From Fibrobacterota bacterium (GTDB taxonomy: Bacteria; Fibrobacterota; Fibrobacteria; UBA11236): a stretch of DNA of 64,000 nucleotides. The DNA is taken from positions 36,617 to 100,616 of the forward strand of contig JAHFCH010000003.1 of NCBI GenBank assembly GCA_023249635.1. Reading direction: 5' to 3'. Below are positions 5,956-56,196 of this stretch, in pieces. The position numbers and the translations under genes were made by a program. Below the pieces are notes generated by a model that was given only the letters and a program-made list of their open reading frames with translations, was not told where the DNA came from and did no database searches. Position 1 is the stretch's first letter, and each line of letters starts with the position of its first letter.

Positions 5956-5979
5956 ATGGGATTCTACGTGGGGTGGAAT

Positions 5980-6390
5980 ATGCATGATTCGATCAAGACG
6001 GTATTGGTGGTGGAGGACGAGGACGCGGTGCGCGGCCTGTTGCGGACTTTGCTGCGGCTGGCCGGCTATTCCGTGCTTACCTGCAGCGATGGCGCGGAAG
6101 CCTTGGACTTGATGGCCGCGCGCGGCGGGGTCGTCCATCTGCTCATCACCGATATCAACCTGGGACCGGACATGGACGGCATCGAATTGGCCGAAGCCTT
6201 GCGGGCCGCGCAGACCGGCATGAAGGTGCTCTACATTTCCGGCCACGAGGAGCCGGATCGGCTCGCGCCTTCCCTGGCCTCGGGCTCCGCGCGCTTCCTG
6301 ATGAAGCCTTTCACTCCGGGCGCTTTCAGAGAGAGTACTTCCGCCCTGCTTGCCGAAGAAGCGCTCATTTCCCTGGGCTCGGCTTCTTGA
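5980..6390 (+). CDS. single-domain response regulator (CheY-like receiver)
   Basis: TVLVVEDEDAVRGLLRTLLRLAGY...LLITDINLGPDMDGIELAEALR...KVLYISGH...KPF is a canonical receiver domain. Start taken at internal Met (MHDSIK). Confidence 0.7.
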   Translation: MHDSIKTVLVVEDEDAVRGLLRTLLRLAGYSVLTCSDGAEALDLMAARGGVVHLLITDINLGPDMDGIELAEALRAAQTGMKVLYISGHEEPDRLAPSLASGSARFLMKPFTPGAFRESTSALLAEEALISLGSAS

Positions 6391-36330: not shown

Positions 36331-36575
36331 TCCGGAAAAATCCGTTTTCCCCTCTTGATCCACCGTCGTGGGGTTTTACGCCCCGCGATGGCGATCCTTC
36401 CACACCTGTTAACCTGCCGGTAACGGCCATCCGCATGTTTCCCCCGCCCTGGGAGCCCCGCTCCTGTTAGGCTGCGCGCCGCCCGCATTATTTACCCTTG
36501 TTTGCCCCATCTATGTTGGATCGTGTTCAACGTGACGAATCACTTACGAATTGATCACTCCGGATTTCAGGCGCG

Positions 36576-36591
36576 AAACGCATTTGCGTTT
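36576..36591. promoter_or_regulatory. 7-2-7 inverted repeat AAACGCA-TT-TGCGTTT followed by TATATATAT, ~70 bp upstream of the UbiA-family gene
   Basis: Perfect inverted repeat read directly; an AT-rich -10-like tract follows immediately. Candidate operator plus promoter. Confidence 0.3.
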
Positions 36592-36658
36592 ATATATATT
36601 CCCGCAAAGAACACAGGGCGAACGGTCGCGCCCTGCATCGCATTCCGGAGGGAACCTT

Positions 36659-37543
36659 ATGCATTCCATCAAAGCGCACATGCGGGAGTTGAAAGCGCCT
36701 TTCGTCCTCATCTATCTCTCGCTGATGGGCTTCCTGTGCATCTATTCCGTACAGCGTTACCTGCACCTTCGCTTCGAGCCGATGAGCTGCCTCAGCTTCA
36801 TGGGTATCATCTTCGGCGTGTATACCCTCAACCGCTTCACGGATACGGCCGAGGACTTCACCAACGATATCGGCCGCCTGCTCTTTTTCCAACGCAAGCG
36901 CAGCTTCCTCGCCATCGCAATCCTGTCCTTGGCCGCGAGCATGGGCTTCCTGCTGTGGGCCGAAAAGCTGAATTGGATGCATTGCCTGCTGCTCGCAATG
37001 GGTTTCGCCTATTCCTACCGCGTGGTTCCCTGGTTCGATCGGGCCAGCGGTTTCCAGCTCCTGCGCATCAAGGAAATGACCTTCCTCAAGAACCTATCGG
37101 TCTCGTTCCTGTGGGGCGCCGCGGTCTTCGTGGTGCCCATCGCCTATTCCGGGATCGTCGCTTTCGACCATAAGATGGTCTGGCTGCTGGCTTCGGGTCT
37201 CTTCGTCAGCACTTTCAACAACACCCTATTCGACGATATCCTCGACGAAGCCGGTGATCGCGTCGCGGGCATCAAGACCCTGCCCACCACCTGGGGCGTG
37301 CGCCGCTCCGAGTTCATGCTCATGGCCCTGGATCTGGTTTGGCTGGGCGCGGTAGCGGCGCTGTATTCAGCGCGCCACGTCGATGGCGCCCACGCCCTAT
37401 TCCTGGCGTTCTTGGGCATATACCCGTTCTTCTACCTGGTTCCGCATCTCCGCACCAAAACCAATAAGGGTTGGATCGACCTTCTGGCCGAAACCGATTT
37501 GCTGTTTTTCGCGGTGGGAATGCTCTTGCTCAGCTTCCGCTGA
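36659..37543 (+). CDS. UbiA-family prenyltransferase
   Basis: First Asp-rich motif NRFTDTAEDFTND and second FDDILDEAGDRVAGIKTLP, with ~8 TM segments. Start at internal ATG 36659 (MHSIKAHMREL). Confidence 0.75.
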   Translation: MHSIKAHMRELKAPFVLIYLSLMGFLCIYSVQRYLHLRFEPMSCLSFMGIIFGVYTLNRFTDTAEDFTNDIGRLLFFQRKRSFLAIAILSLAASMGFLLWAEKLNWMHCLLLAMGFAYSYRVVPWFDRASGFQLLRIKEMTFLKNLSVSFLWGAAVFVVPIAYSGIVAFDHKMVWLLASGLFVSTFNNTLFDDILDEAGDRVAGIKTLPTTWGVRRSEFMLMALDLVWLGAVAALYSARHVDGAHALFLAFLGIYPFFYLVPHLRTKTNKGWIDLLAETDLLFFAVGMLLLSFR

Positions 37544-37544
37544 G

Positions 37545-39329
37545 TCACCTGGCCAGGTGGTACTGGCGCTCTTTGATGCGGCCGCGGGGGCCGCTCTTCC
37601 GCAACATCCGGTTCAACACGTATTCTTCCGAGAAGATTTCCGGCCGGTTGCCCCGCCCGTGATCCAATACGTAGACGTTGCGCGCATGGTGCGAGACCAG
37701 GCATAGCTGCGGGAACATTGCCAAGCGGGTGAACTTTTCCGCCATGGTGCGTGCGCTGACCAATACCGTGACCAGATCGGGATTGAACTCCGGTCCTTCG
37801 AGATCTTCCACGCTCTGCACGATGCTCGGATTGACGCGGATGTTCTGGAACACGCGGATCAGATCGGGCATATTGTCCATGCCGTCCTTGACCACCACTA
37901 TCGGATGCTTCTGCGTCGCGTCCTCGTCCAGGTTCTGGGCGTATACCGGAAAGGTCATGATGAGCTTGAGGCCATGCTCGCCTTTCTTGGCGAGGTTCTT
38001 GGAGTAGGCGCTGATGCGGCCGCCATGGCTTTCCACGATGGTACGGGTTATCGACATGCCGAGACCCGTGCCGCCGTTGGCTTTTTTCGTGGTATAGAAG
38101 GCCTTGAACAGGCTTTCCAACTGCTCCTTGTCGCAGCCCACGCCGTTGTCTTCCACGCTCGCGAGGATCAGGGTATCGGTCGTGGATACCCGGATGCGGA
38201 TGTTGACGGCGTCGCCGCCCACGGCTTCGAAGCTGTTGTTGAAGATGTTTACGAACACCTGTTCCAGCTTGCCCCAATCCCCATGCATGAACCAATCCCG
38301 TTCGAGGCCGGTAAGCGTAAACGCGGCGCGGCGCGAAGGGTAATGCTTATCAATGGTCCCCTTGATCAGTTCGGCCAGGTTCACCGGATGCTTTTCGCGC
38401 AGCACCTCGGTGCGCGAGAGCTTGAGGATGTCGTCGCTGAAATCGGTGAGTCGCTCCACGGAGGTGACGATGTTCTTCACGATTTCCTTACCCTTATGGG
38501 ATAAGGCCTCGACCTCCTGGAGGATCTGCGCGTTGCCCGCGATCATGAACATGTAGTTCTTGATCTCGTGGTTGATGATGGCGGTCGATTCCCCCAACTG
38601 CTTGAGAGCGGTCACCTGCTCCAAGTCCCGGTAGGCCGTTTCCAGCTTGTCGAAATTCGTCTGGCGCTCGCGCAGGATCATCAGGAAGCGTTCGGCGAAG
38701 ATGAGCGATGCCATGATGCCGAAGGCGAGCACGCCCAACACCGTGAAGCTGGTGAGGATCTGCTTCATCATCCCCATCAGGATGCCGATGTCTGCGAGGC
38801 CGCCTAGGATAAGGATCGCGAAACCGAACAGGTGGAACCGCAGGATGCGTTTCTCCGGCGCAGCGCATTTGTTGATGCGTTTGAGAATCACGTAATGGGC
38901 GGTGAAGATGTAGAAGACCACGTAGGGCAGGAAGGCCAGGTAGTATCCGAGGGTGGTGACGACCTTACCGCCCTCCGCGACAATCATCAGGCTGCTCTGG
39001 AAGGCCGCAGCGAGCAGGGAACTCACCGTGATCAGGAAAGGGATGGTTCGTAGCAGCGGGGAATTGGTGAGGATGCAGAGGTACCACAGGGAGAAGGGAA
39101 TGAAGATGCACGCGATGCCGTGATAGGCCCGCTGCCAGAAGACGTTTTGCGCCAGAGTCGCCGCGTAAGGAATTTGCCAGATATCGATGGCCGTCATCGC
39201 GCAGAGCAGGATTAAGGAAACACCGAAAAAGCGGAAACTTCTGTCGAAGTGGGTGCGGAGGTCAAGCAGAATGAACAGCAGGCCGACTGCGAAAAGAAAA
39301 GAGCAAATCACCTGCAACAGTACGTTCAC
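37545..39329 (-). CDS. sensor histidine kinase with polytopic N-terminal membrane sensor domain
   Basis: ~6 TM N-terminus. HisKA-like H box ESTAIINHEIKNYMFMIAG. HATPase_c DNGVGCDKEQLESLFKAFYTTKKANGGTGLGMSI. Extra ~120-aa C-terminal region. Codon usage looks less GC-rich than its surroundings. Confidence 0.8.
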   Translation of the reverse strand: MNVLLQVICSFLFAVGLLFILLDLRTHFDRSFRFFGVSLILLCAMTAIDIWQIPYAATLAQNVFWQRAYHGIACIFIPFSLWYLCILTNSPLLRTIPFLITVSSLLAAAFQSSLMIVAEGGKVVTTLGYYLAFLPYVVFYIFTAHYVILKRINKCAAPEKRILRFHLFGFAILILGGLADIGILMGMMKQILTSFTVLGVLAFGIMASLIFAERFLMILRERQTNFDKLETAYRDLEQVTALKQLGESTAIINHEIKNYMFMIAGNAQILQEVEALSHKGKEIVKNIVTSVERLTDFSDDILKLSRTEVLREKHPVNLAELIKGTIDKHYPSRRAAFTLTGLERDWFMHGDWGKLEQVFVNIFNNSFEAVGGDAVNIRIRVSTTDTLILASVEDNGVGCDKEQLESLFKAFYTTKKANGGTGLGMSITRTIVESHGGRISAYSKNLAKKGEHGLKLIMTFPVYAQNLDEDATQKHPIVVVKDGMDNMPDLIRVFQNIRVNPSIVQSVEDLEGPEFNPDLVTVLVSARTMAEKFTRLAMFPQLCLVSHHARNVYVLDHGRGNRPEIFSEEYVLNRMLRKSGPRGRIKERQYHLAR

Positions 39330-49159: not shown

Positions 49160-50374
49160 TTGAGCAAACCCCGCATCCTCTACATTTCCTCCACTTACAG
49201 CCGTGACGAAAACGACAACCAGAATCCCTGGATGATCGACACCATCCGGCAGCTGAGCCGGGCGGGCTACGCCATCGAAGTGTTGGCCCCGGCCTATAAA
49301 GGGCTGAAAAGCCATACGGTCGGCGGGGTAACCGTCCATCGCTTCCGCTATTTCTTCGCCGGGAGGGAGACCCTTACCCATGATCAAGGGGCCCCGAACA
49401 AGATCCGGGGCAGCCTACTGATCAAGCTCCTGTTCTTCCCCTACCTCTTCTTCGGGACCTTGGCCGCCATGCGCGTCGCGCGTCGGGGCCGCTACGATTT
49501 CATCCACTGCCATTGGCCCTTTCCCCACGGTCTCATGGGCTGGGCCGCCTGCCTGGCGGCGCCCAACCGTCCCCGTCTCATCCTGCATTTCCACGGCGCC
49601 TGCCTTTTGCTCGCGGCCAAGTTCAAGCCCATCGCGCCCTTGCTCCGCTTCTGCGTGCGCCGCGCCCACGGCATCGTCTCCAACTCGCGCTTTACCGCCG
49701 GGATGGTGGAAAAGCTGCTGCCCGCCCTGCCTGTAAAACAATGGATCATCGCGTTCGGATCGCCGCTCTCCGGGGATCCGCTTCCCCCTGCCCGCAATCC
49801 CGTCAAACTCATCCTGACTGTGGGTCGCGTGGTGGAACGCAAAGGCATCGCTTACCTGCTGCGCGCGCTGCCCGCGATTTCCGCGGTCATGGACGCCAAG
49901 GTGGCCATCGTGGGCAAGGGCGATCCCAAGGTGGAAGCCGACCTGCGCGCAGTAACCGAGGAGTTACGCCTGGGGGGCCGCGTCGTGTTCGCGGGCAAGG
50001 TGCCCGAGGCCGATCTCATCCGCTGGTACCAGGACTGCGACGTGTTCTGCCTGCCCGCCATCGTGGATTCCCAGGGCGAGACCGAAGGCCTGGGAGTGGT
50101 GCTTCTCGAAGCCCTCAATTACGCGCGACCGGTGGTGGCTTCCAACGTGGGAGGCATCCCGGACATCGTCCGCCATGGGGAGACGGGTCTGCTGTGCCCG
50201 GAGAAGGATCCGCAGGCCTTGGCCACCGCCATCCTGGAATTGCTGCGCGATCCGGAACGGGCAAACCGCCTGGGACGGCAGGGTCATGCCCTGGTGCGTA
50301 CGGAGTTCTCCTGGGAACATGTGGTGGGGCAATGGGAAGCCTTCTACGCCGAAGCTTCCGGTCCCCCTATTTAA
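49160..50374 (+). CDS. glycosyltransferase family 4 (GT-B, Glycos_transf_1)
   Basis: C-terminal GT4 motifs: FCLPAIVDSQGETEGLGVVLLEALNYARPVVASNVGGIPDIV (EX7E). Apparent TTG start (LSKPR...); no upstream in-frame ATG. Confidence 0.8.
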   Translation: MSKPRILYISSTYSRDENDNQNPWMIDTIRQLSRAGYAIEVLAPAYKGLKSHTVGGVTVHRFRYFFAGRETLTHDQGAPNKIRGSLLIKLLFFPYLFFGTLAAMRVARRGRYDFIHCHWPFPHGLMGWAACLAAPNRPRLILHFHGACLLLAAKFKPIAPLLRFCVRRAHGIVSNSRFTAGMVEKLLPALPVKQWIIAFGSPLSGDPLPPARNPVKLILTVGRVVERKGIAYLLRALPAISAVMDAKVAIVGKGDPKVEADLRAVTEELRLGGRVVFAGKVPEADLIRWYQDCDVFCLPAIVDSQGETEGLGVVLLEALNYARPVVASNVGGIPDIVRHGETGLLCPEKDPQALATAILELLRDPERANRLGRQGHALVRTEFSWEHVVGQWEAFYAEASGPPI

Positions 50375-50909
50375 GGGGATGCAGCCCGTAAGCCATCCGC
50401 ACTTCCCTGGCCTTGGCCCACACCGCCTTGTCCGCCTTGAGAAAGCGCGTGAGCGCCGAAGCCGTGCAGCCCAACGCCGCGGCGGCAGGGGCCGATTGGC
50501 CGCGCCGGCTTTCCAGCGCATACAAGGCCCTGAGGGCGAAACGCGGGAAATCGGCATGGGCGGGATTGGCGGCCGCCCGGAAGGCCGGGCCTTCGGCAAG
50601 CTTGGCGAGATCACCGATATCGGCGGACTCCCCGGTACCTTCCAGGTTACTCCCGGGTTCGATGGCCTCCAGGGCCAGGCTCAAGCGCAGGCGCGCCAAG
50701 GCTTCCCCGACATTGCGGGCCGAGGCCCGCGAATCCACGCATTCGCCCGTGAGGCCAGAGGCCGCATGGCTCAGGCGCACGCCGCTATAGACGCGATTGC
50801 GCTTCTGCCCCCCGGGTCCGGAGCCCTGGAAGCGCGATTGCCTGCATTGCTTGAGCAGGGCGTCGGGATCGAGGGCGAGCCAGGTCCAGGCTGCGGCGGG
50901 GGTGATCAT
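50367..50909 (-). CDS. RF-1 (GGQ) domain peptidyl-tRNA hydrolase family protein (ArfB/PrfH-like), atypical
   Basis: GSGPGGQKRNRVYSGVRLSH...GECVDSRASARNVGEALARLRLSL parallels the release-factor block SGAGGQHVNKTDSAVRLTH...QCQDERSQHKNK...L. 180 aa with no other RF domains. Confidence 0.6.
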   Translation of the reverse strand: MITPAAAWTWLALDPDALLKQCRQSRFQGSGPGGQKRNRVYSGVRLSHAASGLTGECVDSRASARNVGEALARLRLSLALEAIEPGSNLEGTGESADIGDLAKLAEGPAFRAAANPAHADFPRFALRALYALESRRGQSAPAAAALGCTASALTRFLKADKAVWAKAREVRMAYGLHPLK

Positions 50910-50946
50910 GGCGAAGCGAATATAGCAAGGAGCCGGGAACGCGCGC

Positions 50947-52698
50947 TCAGGTCGCGGCGGCGGAATGCGGGTCAGCGACCGTGGGAGGGCCGTCGATCAC
51001 GTCGCGTAATTTGCGGACCAAGGCGGCGGGGCTGAAAGGCTTGCCCAGGAAAGTGGCGCTCTTGTGGATCACCCCGTGACGGATGATGGCATCGTCAGTG
51101 CTTCCGGACATATATCACCTTCAGTCCCGGTTTCCGCGCCAACATCCGTTCGGAGAGTTCACGTCCGCTCATTCCCTTCATCACCACGTCGGTGAGTAGC
51201 AGATCGATAACACCGACGTGGCTTTCCACCGCGGCCATGGCCTCGGCGCCGGAGGCGGCTTCCACCACGTTATAGTCATGGGAAAGCAGGGCCTGCGCGA
51301 TCAGCCGTCGTACCATGTCCTCGTCCTCGACCAGAAGTACGGTTTCCCGCTTGGCCTCCGCGACATGGGCGGGACCGGCGACGGTTTCCGCGTCGCTTTC
51401 CTGTTCACTGGCTGTAGGAGCGGAAGCGGCGGGCAAGGACACCGTGAAGACGGTCCCCTCTCCCTGTCCGCTCGTAACTGATAAGTTACCCCCGGCGCCT
51501 TTCACGATGCCGTAAACGGTCGACAGGCCCAGGCCGGTCCCCTGCCCCGCCGGCTTGGTGGTGAAGAAGGGCTCGAACAGGTGCGACTTGATGTCTTCGT
51601 CCATGCCTATGCCCGTGTCCACGACCGTGAGCCTTACGTAGCGGCCGGGCCGCACCGGGAACAAAGCGCCCGCATGCCCCGGCCCCAAGCGTACATTGGC
51701 GGTACGGATGGTGAGGCTGCCCCCGGTGGGCATGGCGTCCCGGGCGTTGATGGCCAAGTCGAGGAAGCGGCTGGCCGGGACCTGGCGGCGGCTGAAGATG
51801 AGCAATTGCCGGGTCAGCGAAGCGGCCCGTTCGCCTGCGCGGCGATTCTCGTGCACGGTTTCCTGGATCGGATGCCCGTTGCCCAGGGATTTGGAAAGCA
51901 GTTCGGAATAGCCGTTGATGGCGGTGAGCAGGTTGTTGAAATCGTACGCCACCGCGCCGGCCAACCGCCCTACCGCTTCCATCTTCTGGGACTGGCGCAA
52001 TTGCAGCTCGCTTTGCTTCAGGGCGCCTTCGGCGCGCTTGCGATCGGTGGTATCCATCGCTAACCCGATCACGCCGCCTTAGGAAAGGTTGGGCGAGAGC
52101 CAGATCTCGCGAACGCGTTTGCGCGCGCCCATTCCGCTTTCGAATTCGCAATGCACGGTTTCGCCGCGCAGTACGCGCTCCAGGAAGATGGCCGTGTCGG
52201 GCCATTCCGCTTGCGCCTGGACCATGCGGCCCTCCGAGCCGCGCGATTCCAGGATGCGGCCCTGCTTGTCCATGCGGCACCCGACCACGGGCAGGTTCTC
52301 TAAGAGCAGCTCGAGCATATGCCCCTTGGCATCAAGATCAGATCCCGCTGATCCCGCCGCCCCAGCTGCGCCCGGTTCCGGGGTCGCGGATCCGGCCCCG
52401 GGGCAACCAGGTCAAGGCGATGGGCATCCGGCTCGCGTCGTCCGGTGCGGAACTCCACCTTGATTCCCATCCCACCTTCGTCGACCAACGCCTGGGCGAA
52501 GCAAGCCCGCACGCCATTGCGATAATCGGGGTGCAGGCGATCGAGGAAGAGTCCGGGAGCGGGTACCGCCAGGCCCATCAGGCGCAGGGCCGCGGGATTC
52601 GAATACAGGGTGAACCCCTCGGCATCGAGGAGCGCTATGCCATCGGCACTACGCTCCAGCAATTCCTCCGGGGACGGAAAAGCGCGTCCGGAATGCAT
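50947..52698 (-). pseudogene. disrupted hybrid sensor kinase (PAS-PAS-HisKA-HATPase_c-REC)
   Basis: PAS1 in track ORF 52300..52698. Probable frameshift in a C/G run (~52350..52412) into the PAS2 frame (MLELLLENLPVVGCRMDKQGRILE). In-frame TAA at 52079..52081 between ...REIWLSPNLS and [17 protein letters not shown] (PAS to HisKA linker). HisKA/HATPase intact in ORF 51095..52072. The receiver domain shifts frame within an ATATAT tract (51110..51115), so ...LKVIYVRKH* stops while the +1 frame continues MSGSTDDAIIRHGVIHKSATFLGKPFSPAAL..., the canonical receiver C-terminus, to a TGA at 50947. Confidence 0.55.
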
Positions 52699-52762
52699 CG
52701 CCCGGGAATAAAGCTATAGGGGCAAACCCGGGCAAGGAATAGACCTTGCCTGGCGTGTGGGG

Positions 52763-53980
52763 CTATTTGCCCAATTCGCGCACATACGCCATCAAAGGGG
52801 CGAATTCCTCGTCTTTGATGATGCCCTGGAAAGACGGCATCTTGGTCATAGGCTTGAAGGAGGAAGGATTCTTGATCCAGGCCTGCAGGGAGGAATCGGC
52901 GGGGAAATCCCGTTTGGCCAAGGTCAGATCGCCTATCCCCACTCCGGTCTCTGTATGGCAGGCCACGCATCCGTATTTATGGTAGATGGCCTTTCCGTCG
53001 CTCAAGGCCGCGCCGGTCAGGTCCGGGAAATTGCGATCAAGCGGATGCCCGAGAGCCGGTACCGTGCGTAGGTAGGCGTAGATGGCCCGCAACTCGGACT
53101 CGGTAAGCTCGGAGTATTTGACCATGGGATAGCGCAGAATGCGGCCGTCCGGGCGCATACCTCCGTGCAGCGCCTTCACGAAATCGTCCTCGCTCCATTT
53201 ACCGATGCCCGTCTCCGCATCCGGCGTCAGGTTGGCCGTAACGATCATGTTACCCCCGAGGTCCGGCATCAGGTTTCCGCCGCCCATGAACAGGTACGAC
53301 TTCTCGGGTTCGAACTGTTTCATTTTCTTGAAGTCGCCCGAATGGCAGGGCCAGCAATCGAAAGCCTCGACGGCCAGGTATCGGCCCCACTTCACCTTAT
53401 CGGTGGTGTCCGGGGCGGGAATGGGATGATCGGGATAGGGATAGGGTTTGAAGGCCACATGGGACAGGAACTTGGCCAGGAAGGTGGGTTCGGACTCCTT
53501 GTCCGGGGTGGGATCCGCCAAGACCAGGGAATCGTCCGAGCGCAGGAACGCGATGATGGAAAGGATGTCTTCGTCCTGGATGCCGTGCAACTTGATCATC
53601 CACGGCGGGGTATACTTGCCGTCGCGGCGGATGCCGGTGCGCAACATGTAGGCGATTTCGCCGTCGGACCATCCGCCTATGCCCACGTTCTTGTCGTGGG
53701 TCAGGTTTTTGGAATAGGCCACGCCGAATTCCGGCGGCAGATCGGGCAGGCGATGGCCGGTAAGGCGTCCGGTCTTGGTGTCGAGATGGCACTGGCTGCA
53801 CAACAAGTTCGCGATGAGTTTACCGCGTTCCACGCGTTGGGGAGTGATCTCGACCTTGAGATCAGGCGGCTTGGTGGGGTAATGGGGGATGCCGTCGATG
53901 GCGACGAAGGCCGCGAAGCCGCCCGCCGCCAGCAGGATGAGGAGGATCAAACCGCCGAGGATTTTGAAGAACAGCTTCAT
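52763..53980 (-). CDS. membrane-anchored tri-heme c-type cytochrome
   Basis: N-terminal TM anchor MKLFFKILGGLILLILLAAGGFAAFVAI. Three CxxCH heme motifs: CSQCH, CWPCH, CVACH. Confidence 0.75.
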   Translation of the reverse strand: MKLFFKILGGLILLILLAAGGFAAFVAIDGIPHYPTKPPDLKVEITPQRVERGKLIANLLCSQCHLDTKTGRLTGHRLPDLPPEFGVAYSKNLTHDKNVGIGGWSDGEIAYMLRTGIRRDGKYTPPWMIKLHGIQDEDILSIIAFLRSDDSLVLADPTPDKESEPTFLAKFLSHVAFKPYPYPDHPIPAPDTTDKVKWGRYLAVEAFDCWPCHSGDFKKMKQFEPEKSYLFMGGGNLMPDLGGNMIVTANLTPDAETGIGKWSEDDFVKALHGGMRPDGRILRYPMVKYSELTESELRAIYAYLRTVPALGHPLDRNFPDLTGAALSDGKAIYHKYGCVACHTETGVGIGDLTLAKRDFPADSSLQAWIKNPSSFKPMTKMPSFQGIIKDEEFAPLMAYVRELGK

Positions 53981-54057: not shown

Positions 54058-54483
54058 TTATGCGTGCGCGGGCGCAGGGATGGCGCCGATCTGTTGCATC
54101 AGACCCATGAAGTCGGCGTTCACATTGATGGAAACGAGCTTGCCGTCACGATAGGTATCGATGCTGGCGAACTTCATTTCCACGCTCTTGCCGCTGGCAG
54201 GCACTCCCATGAATTCGCCCTTATGGGTACCCCGGAAGGTACCCACCCGGACCACCTTGTCGCCTTCGGCGATCAGGTCTTCCAGATCATGGCGGAACTT
54301 GGGGAAAGCCGCGGCGAACATGGTACAGAAGCCCTTGAACGCCTCCAGGTCCATGGCAGGCTGATTGCCCGCGACCATGTGGAAATCCGGAGCGGCATGT
54401 TCTTCAATCAGGGCGAAGGTGCCTTCGTCAATCTGGGCCAGGCCGCGGCGGGAAAGGGATTTGTTGATTTCTTGCTGGGTCAT
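54058..54483 (-). CDS. SnoaL-like/ester cyclase (NTF2-like fold) family protein
   Basis: 141 aa. Pattern FHMVAGNQPAMDLEAFKGFCTMFAAAFPKFRHDLEDLIAEGDKVVRVGTFRGTHKGEFMG...GKSV is typical of the predicted ester cyclase family. Confidence 0.65.
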   Translation of the reverse strand: MTQQEINKSLSRRGLAQIDEGTFALIEEHAAPDFHMVAGNQPAMDLEAFKGFCTMFAAAFPKFRHDLEDLIAEGDKVVRVGTFRGTHKGEFMGVPASGKSVEMKFASIDTYRDGKLVSINVNADFMGLMQQIGAIPAPAHA

Positions 54484-54594
54484 CGGGGTGTCCTCCTGGG
54501 CCCGGGCATCGGGCCTATGGAAGAAAGATATCGCCCGCGGCAGGGAGCCTCATCGGGCGATCGCCCTATTTTGCGGTAGCGTCCGGGGGGGCGG

Positions 54595-56196
54595 TCAGCG
54601 ATCGAGAAGCCCATGCTCAACCGCATACAGCGCAGCCGCGGCGCGGGTGGAAGCCCCGATCTTGGCGTAGATATGCTGGATATGATGGCCGACGGTCTTG
54701 GCCGAAATGCACAAGGCGTTCCCGGTCTGCTTATTGGAAAGGCCCCGGGCCATCAGGCGCAGGACTTCGATTTCGCGGGCGCTGAGATCGGCCGCGGCTT
54801 TCCCCGGAGCCCGGCCGGGCGCGGGCGCATGGCCGGCGGTCTCCAAGACCGCCTCCACCGCGGTCGCATCCAGCCTGCCCGACTTCGCTTCCCGGCGCAA
54901 TTCCTCCGCGGCCGCCGCAGCCGTCAGGGCCTTACGATGGGGCCGGTCTTCGCGCATGGCCTGGTACGTGTCCGCGGCAGCCAACAGACGCGCCGCCATT
55001 GGCAGGTTGGCTCCGGCAGCCCGCTTATGGTATCCCGAACCGTCCAGCCTTTCATGATGTAAAGCGGCCAACCCGGAAAGTCGCGCCAGCGCGGGCGACC
55101 TCGCCAGTATCCGTTCCGTGAAGTAGGGGTGCATGCGCACCCGTTCCCATTCGCCTTCGTCGAGAGCCCTGGGCTTGCCCCAGATGCCCGCTGAAACCCC
55201 GACCCGGCCGATATCCTGCAGCCAGGCCGCGCGTTTTACGTCCCTCGCTTCGTCCGGCGTAAGTCCCGCGCGCGCCGCCGCTCCCGTGACCAGTGAGGCC
55301 ACGGCGCGGGAATGCCCGAGTACGTAGGGAGATTTGAAATCGGTGAAGTCGGAGATGGCGATCAGGGCCTCATCCAACCGGTCGGCGGCGATGCGCGCCT
55401 TGGTCCCGGGCTCGGCCGCGAGCACGGCATCCCACACCGAAGGCACCGCCAACGGCGCCATCAGGGCCTCGGCATCCTTCAGGAAAAGCGCGGCCAGATC
55501 CGGATCGTACATGCCGCCCGCGCGCCTGCCTACCGCTTCCAGCACCGCGGGTTTGCCCCCGGCGCTGAACAGGGTGGCCGCGTCTTGGGCCAGATGCACG
55601 ACGCGCACTTCAAGGGCGATGGCGTTGCCCTTAAGCTCACTGGGCGTGCCTTTCCCATCCCAACGGCTGTAGATCTGGCGGAACAATAGGGGAAGGCCGG
55701 GATCGATGGCGAGCCGCTCCGCCAGCCGCTCGGCCACTTCGCAATGCGACATGTGGTTCTCGCGCTTCAACGCCTGCCCTCCCGCCATCAACTTGGCGAG
55801 GATGGCGATGCGTTGCGGCAGGGGCTTATCCTTTGCCACCACCGTGAACAAGAACCGCAAGGCTTCCGCGGGATTCTCCAGATCGAGCTCGAAACCCTCA
55901 GCCATGCCCAGATCGCCGCCGAAATCCCGCGCCGCCGCGGCCGAGGTGGAGGTGCATCCGATATGCCGGAGCAAGGCGAGGTAGTACAGGTTGCGGCGAC
56001 GGGCGGGTTCGAGCCCGGCGGCTTCGCCCAGGCGCATGGCCATCAGGCAGGATCGCAGCATCCACTCCATGGGCATCCCCACGCCCAGATCGATTGCGAA
56101 GGAAAGCGAAGCGATCAACTCCGCCATGCGCATGGAATCGTCGCGGGAGGGAGCGGTAGGCGGGACGGCCGGGGCTGCGCTATCGCCCGGGGTCAT
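54595..56196 (-). CDS. transcriptional regulator with tandem HD-type domains (second one HD-GYP-like) and C-terminal LuxR HTH
   Basis: HSRAVASLVTG...AAWLQDIGRV (HD...LHDIGK-like) and HHERLDGSGYHK (HHExxDGxGY-H, an HD-GYP-like variant). The N-terminal domain has a degenerate LLRHIGC. C-terminal LSAREIEVLRLMARGLSNKQTGNALCISAKTVGHHIQHIYAKIG is a LuxR HTH. Start placed at the Met whose ATG overlaps the upstream stop (ATGA); the track's N-terminal 123 aa are low-complexity. Confidence 0.65.
   Translation of the reverse strand: MTPGDSAAPAVPPTAPSRDDSMRMAELIASLSFAIDLGVGMPMEWMLRSCLMAMRLGEAAGLEPARRRNLYYLALLRHIGCTSTSAAAARDFGGDLGMAEGFELDLENPAEALRFLFTVVAKDKPLPQRIAILAKLMAGGQALKRENHMSHCEVAERLAERLAIDPGLPLLFRQIYSRWDGKGTPSELKGNAIALEVRVVHLAQDAATLFSAGGKPAVLEAVGRRAGGMYDPDLAALFLKDAEALMAPLAVPSVWDAVLAAEPGTKARIAADRLDEALIAISDFTDFKSPYVLGHSRAVASLVTGAAARAGLTPDEARDVKRAAWLQDIGRVGVSAGIWGKPRALDEGEWERVRMHPYFTERILARSPALARLSGLAALHHERLDGSGYHKRAAGANLPMAARLLAAADTYQAMREDRPHRKALTAAAAAEELRREAKSGRLDATAVEAVLETAGHAPAPGRAPGKAAADLSAREIEVLRLMARGLSNKQTGNALCISAKTVGHHIQHIYAKIGASTRAAAALYAVEHGLLDR

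What the first reader, a model, noticed from the sequence alone, without database searches (positions are those of the whole stretch)
50947..52698. Hybrid PAS-PAS-HisKA-HATPase-REC sensor kinase carrying two unambiguous disruptions and a probable third
Three disruptions appear in one gene. First, an in-frame TAA at 52079..52081 sits exactly between a PAS core (...RVREIWLSPNLS) and the canonical PAS-to-HisKA linker ([24 protein letters not shown]...). Second, the receiver domain is interrupted inside an ATATAT tract (51110..51115). The translated frame stops (...LKVIYVRKH*) while the +1 frame continues with the textbook receiver C-terminus (Y)MSGSTDDAIIRHGVIHKSATFLGKPFSPAALVRKLRDVI. This is consistent with a 2-nt loss in a dinucleotide repeat. 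Third, PAS1 (52300..52698) ends in a 46-aa Arg-rich out-of-frame-looking tail, whereas the adjacent frame encodes a Gly/Ala/Ser/Pro linker leading into PAS2. This implies a shift in a C/G homopolymer region (~52350..52412). Alternatively, PAS1 is a separate overlapping gene. All other genes in the window are intact, so systematic sequencing error is less likely. The gene may be undergoing decay, or the (AT)n tract may act as a phase-variable switch.
Basis: partly seen in the sequence, partly recalled or inferred. Interest (0 to 1): 0.55.

Follow-up and report, generated by a model that had tools for sequence, protein, structure and literature searches.

The report
Dead hybrid sensor kinase gene remnant
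This is the decayed remnant of a PAS-domain hybrid sensor histidine kinase gene in an uncultured soil bacterium related to Fibrobacterota; it carries at least seven disabling changes that recur in independent samples, so it is a real but ordinary pseudogene and neither a sequencing error nor a genetic switch.

Summary
On the minus strand of 50947..52698 there is an in-frame TAA (52079..52081), a frame break in ATATAT (51110..51115) inside the receiver domain, and a frame break between PAS1 and PAS2.

The damage is greater than reported. The intact positional orthologues, in the same gene order in Fibrobacterota MAGs, are 910-960 aa (PAS x4-HisKA-HATPase-REC). Only 1752 nt survive here against about 2850 nt. 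Additional lesions:
- The phospho-acceptor His is replaced by Tyr (51944..51946).
- An in-frame 45-codon deletion lies at the start of the ATPase domain (junction 51754/51755).
- An in-frame deletion of about 250-265 codons removed PAS3 and PAS4. It occurred between two copies of the T(D/E)RKRAE linker motif (52028..52048).
- About 47 codons are missing at the PAS1 C-terminus, and this loss also changes the frame.

DNA or gene calls from four further assemblies from four samples show lesions at this locus: all four carry the piece that ends at the TAA, and two span the whole remnant. This rules out a random sequencing error. The (AT)3 tract occurs at chance frequency, does not vary between samples, and could not restore function. 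Neighbouring genes are intact.

Verdict: a fixed, multiply disrupted pseudogene. Gene decay is supported; phase variation is not. Interest is low.

The parts
50947..52698 (-). Whole pseudogene remnant: 1752 nt, against 2844-2862 nt for the intact orthologues in L002 and L004.
   Evidence: tblastn of 14 intact homologues. Profile of 13 orthologues run against the three reading frames. Conserved gene order.
52414..52698 (-). N-terminal part of PAS1, with the orthologous ATG start at 52698. Matches orthologue profile positions 2-94.
   Evidence: Weak Pfam PAS, PAS_8 and PAS_3 hits.
52364..52413 (-). Lesion 1. These 50 nt cannot be assigned in any frame and replace ~47 profile positions (95-142), which hold the last PAS1 strands (RLEAHV..DG..WLVLNLRE) and the linker. 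The reading frame changes here, consistent with a net deletion of 3n+1 nt.
52082..52363 (-). Linker and PAS2 (profile positions 143 to ~245), 64% identical to P0001.
52079..52081 (-). Lesion 2. In-frame TAA where orthologues have Asp or Asn (GAT, GAC or AAC).
   Evidence: By a crude ORF-picking heuristic, TAA ends about 16 other ORFs in the window, so it is an ordinary stop codon here.
52028..52048 (-). Lesion 3. Junction of an in-frame deletion of ~250-265 codons (PAS3 and PAS4; profile positions 263-510). The upstream half of ACCGATCGCAAGCGCGCCGAA matches the end of PAS2 and the downstream half matches the end of PAS4. The crossover lies in the repeated T(D/E)RKRAE linker motif.
51944..51946 (-). 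Lesion 4. The phospho-acceptor His codon (CAT or CAC in orthologues) is TAC (Tyr): GGVAHDFNNLL has become [11 protein letters not shown].
   Evidence: The His is invariant in all 13 orthologues.
51752..51760 (-). Lesion 5. Junction (between 51755 and 51754) of an in-frame 45-codon deletion: LLDL|NEVV....QMEQLLLNL|ALNARDA has become FLDL|AINARDA. It removes the first part of the ATPase (CA) domain. It lies between short imperfect direct repeats that encode L-L-(D/N)-L.
   Evidence: The Pfam HATPase_c match starts only at model position 13.
51107..51763 (-). Rest of the ATPase domain (G1 DTGIGM, F FEPFFTTK and G2 GTGLGL boxes present) and the first three quarters of the receiver domain (phospho-Asp in LLLTDVVM).
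51110..51115 (-). Lesion 6. Frameshift in ATATAT, most simply a 2-nt deletion. It separates the receiver's conserved Lys (GKPF) from the rest of the domain.
50947..51111 (-). Receiver C-terminus in the shifted frame (MSGSTDDAIIRHGV...GKPFSP...), followed by the stop codon.

Best explanation
The region is a non-functional, multiply disrupted pseudogene. It derives from a ~920-950-aa cytoplasmic hybrid sensor histidine kinase (PAS x4-HisKA-HATPase_c-REC) that is intact in related uncultured Fibrobacterota. In those relatives the kinase gene lies upstream of an RF-1-domain gene and a GT4 glycosyltransferase gene, and in most of them directly downstream of a dihaem cytochrome c gene, next to a polysaccharide-synthesis cluster.

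In this lineage, selection on the sensor was lost and the gene is being eroded by ordinary mutation.

Shown:
- A recombination or slippage deletion between two copies of the repeated PAS-linker motif removed PAS3 and PAS4.
- A 135-nt deletion between short L-L-(D/N)-L repeats removed the start of the ATPase domain.
- A deletion of about 90-95 nt that is not a multiple of three removed the end of PAS1 and changed the frame.
- A nonsense codon arose at the end of PAS2.
- The phosphorylatable His became Tyr.
- A 2-nt loss split the receiver domain.
- The lesions are present in all five assemblies that cover the locus.

Inferred:
- The remnant makes no working kinase.
- The order of the events is unknown.
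- Inactivation is recent compared with the split from the sampled relatives, because the surviving codons show no overall excess of amino-acid change.
For: Lesion map from alignments to intact proteins and from a 13-orthologue profile.

Orthology by gene order. The order runs flippase, cyt c (absent in L002/L003), kinase, RF-1 domain, GT4 on the opposite strand, a ~321-aa ORF, and in L004 and the JGI contig directly after it a chalcone-synthase-like gene. It is seen in L002/L003 (GCA_035275285.1), L004 (GCA_028287465.1) and JGI 3300050046, where the kinase is 921-953 aa.

Closer relatives (cyt c 78-81% identical) have uninterrupted ORFs of at least 653, 410 and 183 aa from the same start. These ORFs run to the contig ends.

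Junction sequences show repeats at both in-frame deletions.

Reproducibility. L001 (ERZ27280176) is identical over the whole remnant and L088 (ERZ27297344) is identical over 52072..53175. An 84-kb contig of ERZ27296333 has the same 79 + 320 + 54-aa fragment pattern, and a Logan SRR14366772 contig, which ends inside the next piece, has the 79-aa piece that ends at the TAA.

The 84-kb strain variant differs by two further amino-acid changes in the remnant. One is Gly to Asp in the invariant TVYGIVK motif. The only two SNPs seen in the intact neighbouring genes are synonymous.

The window sequence differs at 12 of 204 columns that are invariant in the orthologues, including the H-box Gly and His.

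Neighbouring genes have the same lengths as their orthologues.

Multi-lesion decay with 3n deletions at microhomologies matches published descriptions of bacterial pseudogenes (PMC6054270, PMC2916853).
Against: A relative-rate test finds no excess amino-acid substitution in the surviving parts compared with intact orthologues (unique changes 52 vs 50, 54 vs 63 and 24 vs 36). The case therefore rests on the lesions and not on a relaxed-selection signal.

Codon-position GC in the fragments is still gene-like (GC3 0.73-0.84).

The loss of PAS3 and PAS4 may therefore have preceded inactivation.

Expression was not tested.

No very close relative (>90% identity) with an intact copy was found, so the timing cannot be set.
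Confidence: 0.93

Rival explanations
1. Sequencing or assembly artefact: the gene is intact in the organism, and the stop codon and frameshifts are errors in this contig.
For: The source is a metagenome assembly. One lesion sits in a short AT repeat and another lies in a GC-rich run. No reads could be inspected.
Against: Two contigs from other samples are base-for-base identical over the lesions they cover: L001 over all of them, L088 over the TAA and the PAS1-PAS2 break. Two more contigs have gene calls that show lesions: the 84-kb contig has all three pieces (79, 320 and 54 aa), and the Logan contig has the 79-aa piece that ends at the TAA. The contig names (k141_) suggest short-read assemblies, in which indel errors are rare; this is my inference. 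Errors cannot produce a His-to-Tyr change, a 135-nt deletion and a ~750-800-nt in-frame deletion. All the neighbouring genes checked against orthologous loci are full length.
Confidence: 0.02
2. Phase-variable contingency gene: slippage in the (AT)n tract switches the receiver domain, and so the kinase, on and off.
For: The frame break lies exactly in a dinucleotide run and fits the loss of one AT unit.
Against: The tract has only three units. ATATAT occurs 3 times in the window against 3.67 expected by chance. Tandem Repeats Finder reports no repeat here. Both other assemblies that cover the tract carry it at the same length: L001 has the same sequence, and the 84-kb contig is called with the same 320- and 54-aa pieces. 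The orthologues do not encode this motif with an AT repeat; they read CTG TAC ATG or CTA TAC ATG. An 'on' state would still lack the phospho-acceptor His, part of the ATPase domain and PAS integrity, and would still contain a TAA.
Confidence: 0.01
3. The fragments are kept because one or more still do something. Possibilities include a stand-alone PAS or pseudo-kinase/receiver protein with a regulatory or scaffolding role, recoding (read-through plus frameshifting) that yields a shortened two-PAS protein, or transcription through the remnant that is needed for the downstream RF-1-domain gene.
For: The remnant has persisted through at least six events and is fixed in every sample seen. Its codon composition is still gene-like, and there is no overall excess of substitutions. 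The downstream RF-1-domain gene is on the same strand, 37 nt away, and follows the kinase in every orthologous locus. Two-PAS hybrid kinases exist.
Against: No fragment is a complete domain set. PAS1 lacks its last strands and ends in an out-of-frame tail. The 320-aa piece has Tyr in place of the catalytic His, a truncated ATPase domain and a receiver without its conserved Lys. The orthologues have none of the putative recoding sites. A strain variant carries Gly to Asp at an invariant ATPase-domain position, which is what drift would produce. The gene-like composition is equally well explained by recent inactivation.
Confidence: 0.04

Closest known systems
Intact 910-960-aa PAS-rich hybrid histidine kinases of uncultured Fibrobacterota (for example P0007 in GCA_035275285.1 and P0006 in GCA_028287465.1). 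Automatic pipelines label them 'PAS domain S-box protein' or 'CckA'.
   Same: The start codon is orthologous. Surviving segments are 47-73% identical, and the HisKA-ATPase-receiver block is 55-62% identical. The flanking genes are the same (cyt c upstream; RF-1 domain and GT4 downstream).
   Different: The window copy has lost about 38% of its length (PAS3, PAS4, the end of PAS1 and the start of the ATPase domain). It has a stop codon and two frame changes, and Tyr replaces the phospho-acceptor His. The 'CckA' label is an automatic annotation. These organisms are not Alphaproteobacteria, and nothing here tests a CckA-like role.
Bacterial pseudogenes decaying through deletional bias (Kuo & Ochman 2010, PMC2916853; Danneels et al. 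2018, PMC6054270).
   Same: It has several independent disabling mutations and net DNA loss. Deletions lie at short repeats, and two of them are multiples of 3 nt. It is a weakly connected accessory regulatory gene. The remnant sits in a syntenic position among intact neighbours.
   Different: It is found in a metagenome-assembled, presumably free-living soil bacterium and not in a host-restricted genome in general decay. Nothing else in the 64-kb window looks degraded.
Contingency loci that are phase-variable through simple-sequence repeats (own knowledge: Haemophilus, Neisseria and Campylobacter homopolymer or multimer tracts).
   Same: A frameshift lies inside a dinucleotide run.
   Different: The tract has only 3 units, occurs at chance frequency, does not vary between samples, is not conserved in the orthologues, and could not restore function.

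Membership tests
Functional HisKA-type hybrid sensor histidine kinase (PF00512 + PF02518 + PF00072) | Conserved phospho-acceptor His in the H-box | tested here: not met
   [11 protein letters not shown], with TAC at 51944..51946. All 13 orthologues have GGVAHDFNNLL.
Functional HisKA-type hybrid sensor histidine kinase (PF00512 + PF02518 + PF00072) | Complete catalytic ATP-binding domain | tested here: not met
   The N (NARDAM), G1, F and G2 motifs are present. However, 45 residues before and into the N-box helix are deleted, and the Pfam HATPase_c match covers only positions 13-110 of 111.
Functional HisKA-type hybrid sensor histidine kinase (PF00512 + PF02518 + PF00072) | One uninterrupted reading frame from sensor domains to receiver | tested here: not met
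   There is one stop codon (TAA) and two frame changes, leaving four separate ORFs of 132, 79, 325 and 54 aa.
Functional HisKA-type hybrid sensor histidine kinase (PF00512 + PF02518 + PF00072) | Receiver domain with phospho-Asp and conserved Lys on one chain | tested here: not met
   The Asp (LLLTDVVM) and the Lys (GKPF) lie on opposite sides of the frameshift at 51110..51115. Only a conceptual repair gives a full Pfam match.
Orthologue of the Fibrobacterota four-PAS hybrid kinase | Best sequence matches and the same start codon | tested here: met
   The top 14 hits are Fibrobacterota-type proteins at 53-64% identity. Residue 1 of the orthologues aligns to 52698.
Orthologue of the Fibrobacterota four-PAS hybrid kinase | Conserved gene neighbourhood | tested here: met
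   The same upstream and downstream genes appear in L002/L003 (where cyt c is absent), L004, JGI 3300050046, L085 and L086.
Bacterial pseudogene | Disabling mutations relative to intact orthologues, and truncated length | tested here: met
   Six structural lesions plus the His-to-Tyr change. Length is 1752 nt against ~2850 nt, or 61%.
Bacterial pseudogene | Lesions are real, meaning reproducible in independent data | tested here: met
   Identical DNA in L001 (whole remnant) and L088 (52072..53175). The same three-piece gene calls in an 84-kb contig, and the 79-aa piece ending at the TAA in a 1.7-kb Logan contig. Four other samples in all. Raw reads were not available.
Bacterial pseudogene | Relaxed selection on the remaining sequence | tested here: inconclusive
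   No overall rate excess. Differences at invariant columns are 5.9%, against a median of about 1%, but two intact orthologues are as high or higher. Two strain differences are both non-synonymous, but synonymous differences could not be counted.
SSR-mediated phase-variable locus | A repeat tract long enough to slip, and more than chance would give | tested here: not met
   (AT)3 only. 3 matches against 3.67 expected. No Tandem Repeats Finder hit.
SSR-mediated phase-variable locus | Tract length varies between strains or samples, and the ON state gives an intact gene | tested here: not met
   The tract is in the same state in both other assemblies that cover it, L001 and the 84-kb contig. The five other lesions would remain.
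Programmed recoding (stop read-through or frameshifting) | The recoding site is conserved in orthologues | tested here: not met
   Orthologues have a sense codon (GAT, GAC or AAC) and an in-frame CTG/CTA TAC ATG at the two sites.

The most novel reading that the evidence does not exclude
The loss of this sensor kinase may be one half of a regulatory rewiring of the adjacent polysaccharide-synthesis and cytochrome c locus. This lineage alone has acquired an HD-GYP-like/LuxR-HTH regulator and a SnoaL-like gene about 1.4 kb upstream (54058..56196). The kinase remnant may persist because transcription through it still drives the conserved downstream RF-1-domain (ArfB-like) gene. An alternative version of this reading is that a fragment has a residual regulatory role.
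Probability: 0.06. Interest if true: 0.3.

Novelty: new member of a known kind. Interest (0 to 1): 0.12.

Why it matters
Scientifically it matters little: it is one accessory two-component sensor lost in one uncultured soil lineage.

It has some practical value:
- The gene should be annotated as a single pseudogene. The existing pipeline calls three to four small ORFs plus a spurious antisense ORF.
- It is a clean natural example of PAS-domain loss by recombination between the repeated PAS-linker (T-D/E-R-K-R-A-E) motif, which is one way multi-PAS kinases change architecture.
- The lesions are fixed across several soil samples. This shows that the breaks in this MAG gene are real biology and not assembly noise.

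Tried and rejected
1. A two-step frameshift path through the third frame (RGRIRDPG resembles the orthologue's RGIHRDG) at the PAS1-PAS2 junction. Composite sequences scored no better against the orthologue profile (171.4 vs 173.6 bits), so it was rejected. The exact event or events in 52364..52413 remain unresolved.

2. A scan of genome contigs with the kinase core. The generic H-box and receiver peptide patterns hit hundreds of unrelated hybrid kinases (39-48% identity, Acidobacteriota, Nitrospirota and others) and returned no close relative.

3. A relative-rate test for accelerated evolution gave no signal.

4. Attempts to retrieve the source record or the 84-kb contig DNA failed because the files were too large or were not exposed. 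Strain comparison for that contig was therefore limited to protein sequences.

5. A search for an intact paralogue in the window found none. The only other matches are unrelated two-component genes: a histidine kinase at 37545..39329 (-) and a receiver-domain gene at 5956..6390 (+).

6. A promoter and terminator scan of 50300..53000 found nothing above the shuffled expectation.

7. Alternative genetic code. By a crude ORF-picking heuristic, TAA ends about 16 other ORFs in the window, so this was rejected.
Full report
**What is in the sequence**

The minus strand of 50947..52698 holds four consecutive ORFs:
- 132 aa at 52300..52698
- 79 aa at 52079..52318
- 325 aa at 51095..52072
- 54 aa at 50947..51111

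Pfam finds weak PAS signals in the first ORF. The third has HisKA, HATPase_c and the first 76 of 111 positions of a receiver domain. The other two give no hit.

- An in-frame TAA at 52079..52081.
- A frame break within ATATAT at 51110..51115. One frame reads LKVIYVRKH* and the other continues YMSGSTDDAIIRHGV...GKPFSP.
- A change of frame between PAS1 and PAS2.

**Provenance and reproducibility**

An exact-protein look-up of the neighbouring cytochrome c gene returned metagenome contigs from ENA.
- L001 (4579 bp, ERZ27280176, k141_ naming) is 99.96% identical to the window. It differs at two positions, 53897 and 54355, both outside the kinase and both synonymous.
- L088 (1104 bp, ERZ27297344) is identical over 52072..53175. 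That stretch includes the TAA and the PAS1-PAS2 junction.
- An 84-kb contig of ERZ27296333 has gene calls with the same 79 + 320 + 54-aa fragment pattern.
- A 1.7-kb Logan contig of SRR14366772 has the 79-aa piece that ends at the TAA, and then ends inside the next piece.

The 84-kb strain is not a duplicate of the window. Its 320-aa piece differs by Gly to Asp in the invariant TVYGIVK motif, and its 54-aa piece differs by Asp to Asn.

The lesions are therefore seen in four other assemblies and in at least two strain variants.

**What the gene used to be**

A search with the conceptually joined protein found its best matches in proteins of 910-960 aa from Fibrobacterota MAGs and soil metagenomes. 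Identity is 53-64% over the kinase-receiver part, and these proteins carry several PAS domains.

tblastn of these proteins against the window gives a consistent picture. For P0001 (913 aa):
- Residues 1-92 align to 52698..52423.
- Residues 138-250 align to 52339..52007 in another frame, straight across the TAA.
- Residues 497-862 align to 52072..51107, with a 45-46-residue gap.
- Residues 861-900 align to 51114..50995 in the first frame again.

A profile built from 13 intact homologues (924 positions) and run against the three frames gives the map below.

| Profile positions | Window coordinates | Status |
|---|---|---|
| 2-94 | 52695..52414 | present |
| 95-142 | (52413..52364, unassignable) | missing; frame changes |
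| 143-262 | 52363..52028 | present |
| 263-510 | none | missing, in frame |
| 511-612 | 52060..51755 | present |
| 613-655 | none | missing, in frame |
| 656-873 | 51763..51107 | present |
| 872-918 | 51114..50974 | present, in the other frame |

**Orthology**

These proteins are positional orthologues.
- In GCA_035275285.1 (L002/L003), GCA_028287465.1 (L004) and a JGI contig, the 921-953-aa kinase lies between a flippase or cytochrome c gene upstream and an RF-1-domain gene downstream. An oppositely oriented GT4 glycosyltransferase and a ~321-aa ORF follow. This matches the window.
- Relatives whose cytochrome c is 78-81% identical to the window's have uninterrupted ORFs of at least 653, 410 and 183 aa from the orthologous start, each running to the contig end. 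One of these contigs comes from the same sample as the 84-kb contig.
- The window holds no second, intact copy.

**The lesions**

1. *End of PAS1.* About 47 profile positions are missing. They hold the last PAS1 strands (RLEAHV..DG..WLVLNLRE) and the linker. Fifty nucleotides (52364..52413) lie in between and cannot be assigned in any frame. The frame arithmetic requires a net deletion of 3n+1 nt. A path through the third frame was tested and is not supported.
2. *Nonsense codon.* TAA stands where orthologues have GAT, GAC or AAC.
3. *Loss of PAS3 and PAS4.* This is an in-frame loss of ~250-265 codons. The window's ACCGATCGCAAGCGCGCCGAA (52028..52048) matches the end of PAS2 on its 5' side and the end of PAS4 on its 3' side. 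The deletion therefore arose between two near-identical copies of the T(D/E)RKRAE linker motif.
4. *Phospho-acceptor His to Tyr.* CAT/CAC has become TAC at 51944..51946, and the preceding invariant Gly is now Ala.
5. *Deletion in the ATPase domain.* This in-frame 45-codon deletion has its junction between 51755 and 51754: LLDL|N...LLNL|A. It lies between short imperfect repeats and removes the start of the ATPase domain, so the Pfam match begins only at model position 13.
6. *Frameshift in the receiver.* Orthologues read CTG/CTA TAC ATG TCC, and the window reads ATA TAT GTC C. A 2-nt deletion fits best. Conceptual repair restores a complete receiver match, 73 bits over positions 1-110 of 111.

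Only 1752 nt remain, against ~2850 nt in the orthologues.

**Is the rest of the genome decaying?**

It is not, as far as the window shows.
- All the neighbouring genes for which orthologous loci were recovered have lengths comparable to their counterparts in those loci.
- By a crude ORF-picking heuristic, the window is densely filled with long ORFs of gene-like codon composition, and TAA ends about 16 of them.

**Selection signal**

A relative-rate test shows no excess of amino-acid changes in the surviving parts. The window differs at 12 of 204 columns that are invariant among the orthologues (5.9%; median for intact proteins about 1%). Two intact, more divergent orthologues reach 5-12%.

This signal is therefore inconclusive. 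It fits an inactivation that is recent compared with the ~40% protein divergence from the sampled relatives.

**Phase variation**

This reading is rejected.
- ATATAT occurs three times in the window against 3.67 expected.
- Tandem Repeats Finder finds no repeat here.
- The tract has three units in both other assemblies that cover it.
- The orthologues do not have the repeat.
- Restoring the frame would leave five other lesions.

**Comparison with what is known**

The picture matches published descriptions of bacterial pseudogenes: several disabling mutations, net deletion, and 3n deletions at microhomologies (PMC6054270). Persistence of degraded copies has been described mainly for weakly connected, low-expression genes (PMC2916853).

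The 'CckA' label on some orthologues is an automatic annotation and was not tested here.

**Verdict**

The decay interpretation is supported. The phase-switch idea and the separate-PAS-gene idea are not. This is an ordinary pseudogene, real and fixed in the population, and of low interest beyond correct annotation and as a neat example of PAS-domain loss by recombination between linker repeats.

Noticed in passing
window 54058..56196 (-): An HD_5 (HD-GYP-like) + GerE/LuxR-HTH protein (533 aa, 54595..56196) and a SnoaL-like protein (141 aa, 54058..54483) lie between the polysaccharide flippase gene and the cytochrome c gene. In orthologous loci L004, L085, L086 and a JGI contig, the flippase gene is followed directly by cyt c. 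This is therefore a lineage-specific two-gene insertion next to the dead kinase.
   Followed up: partly
window 52420..52719 (+): In three of the four contigs, the public gene calls skip the 132-aa PAS1 ORF and call an antisense 99-aa ORF instead. This is a spurious call caused by the pseudogene.
   Followed up: partly
contig of sample ERZ27296333 (no DNA returned): The sample that holds the 84-kb contig with the dead kinase also holds a 2.6-kb contig of a relative (cyt c 81% identical). That contig has an uninterrupted ORF of at least 410 aa at the kinase position. Intact and dead versions therefore co-occur in one sample, in different lineages.
   Followed up: no
window 53897 and 54355; proteins P0242 and P0245: The two SNPs between the window and L001 are synonymous, in the intact cyt c and SnoaL genes. 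The two differences seen in the kinase remnant of the 84-kb strain are non-synonymous (Gly to Asp in the invariant TVYGIVK motif, and Asp to Asn). The numbers are too small for a test, and synonymous differences in that strain could not be seen.
   Followed up: partly
window 50367..50909 (-): A 180-aa RF-1-domain (ArfB-like peptidyl-tRNA hydrolase) gene follows the kinase on the same strand in every orthologous locus, at 6-121 nt (37 nt in the window). This suggests co-transcription.
   Followed up: no
L002/L003 (GCA_035275285.1): In this relative the cytochrome c gene is missing between the flippase gene and the kinase. A 1200-aa BNR/Big_2 protein is inserted downstream, so the locus is variable in other places too.
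   Followed up: no
window 36592..36599: ATATATAT is the only other (AT) run of three or more units in the 64-kb window. It lies at the start of the ORF 36551..37543 (+).
   Followed up: no
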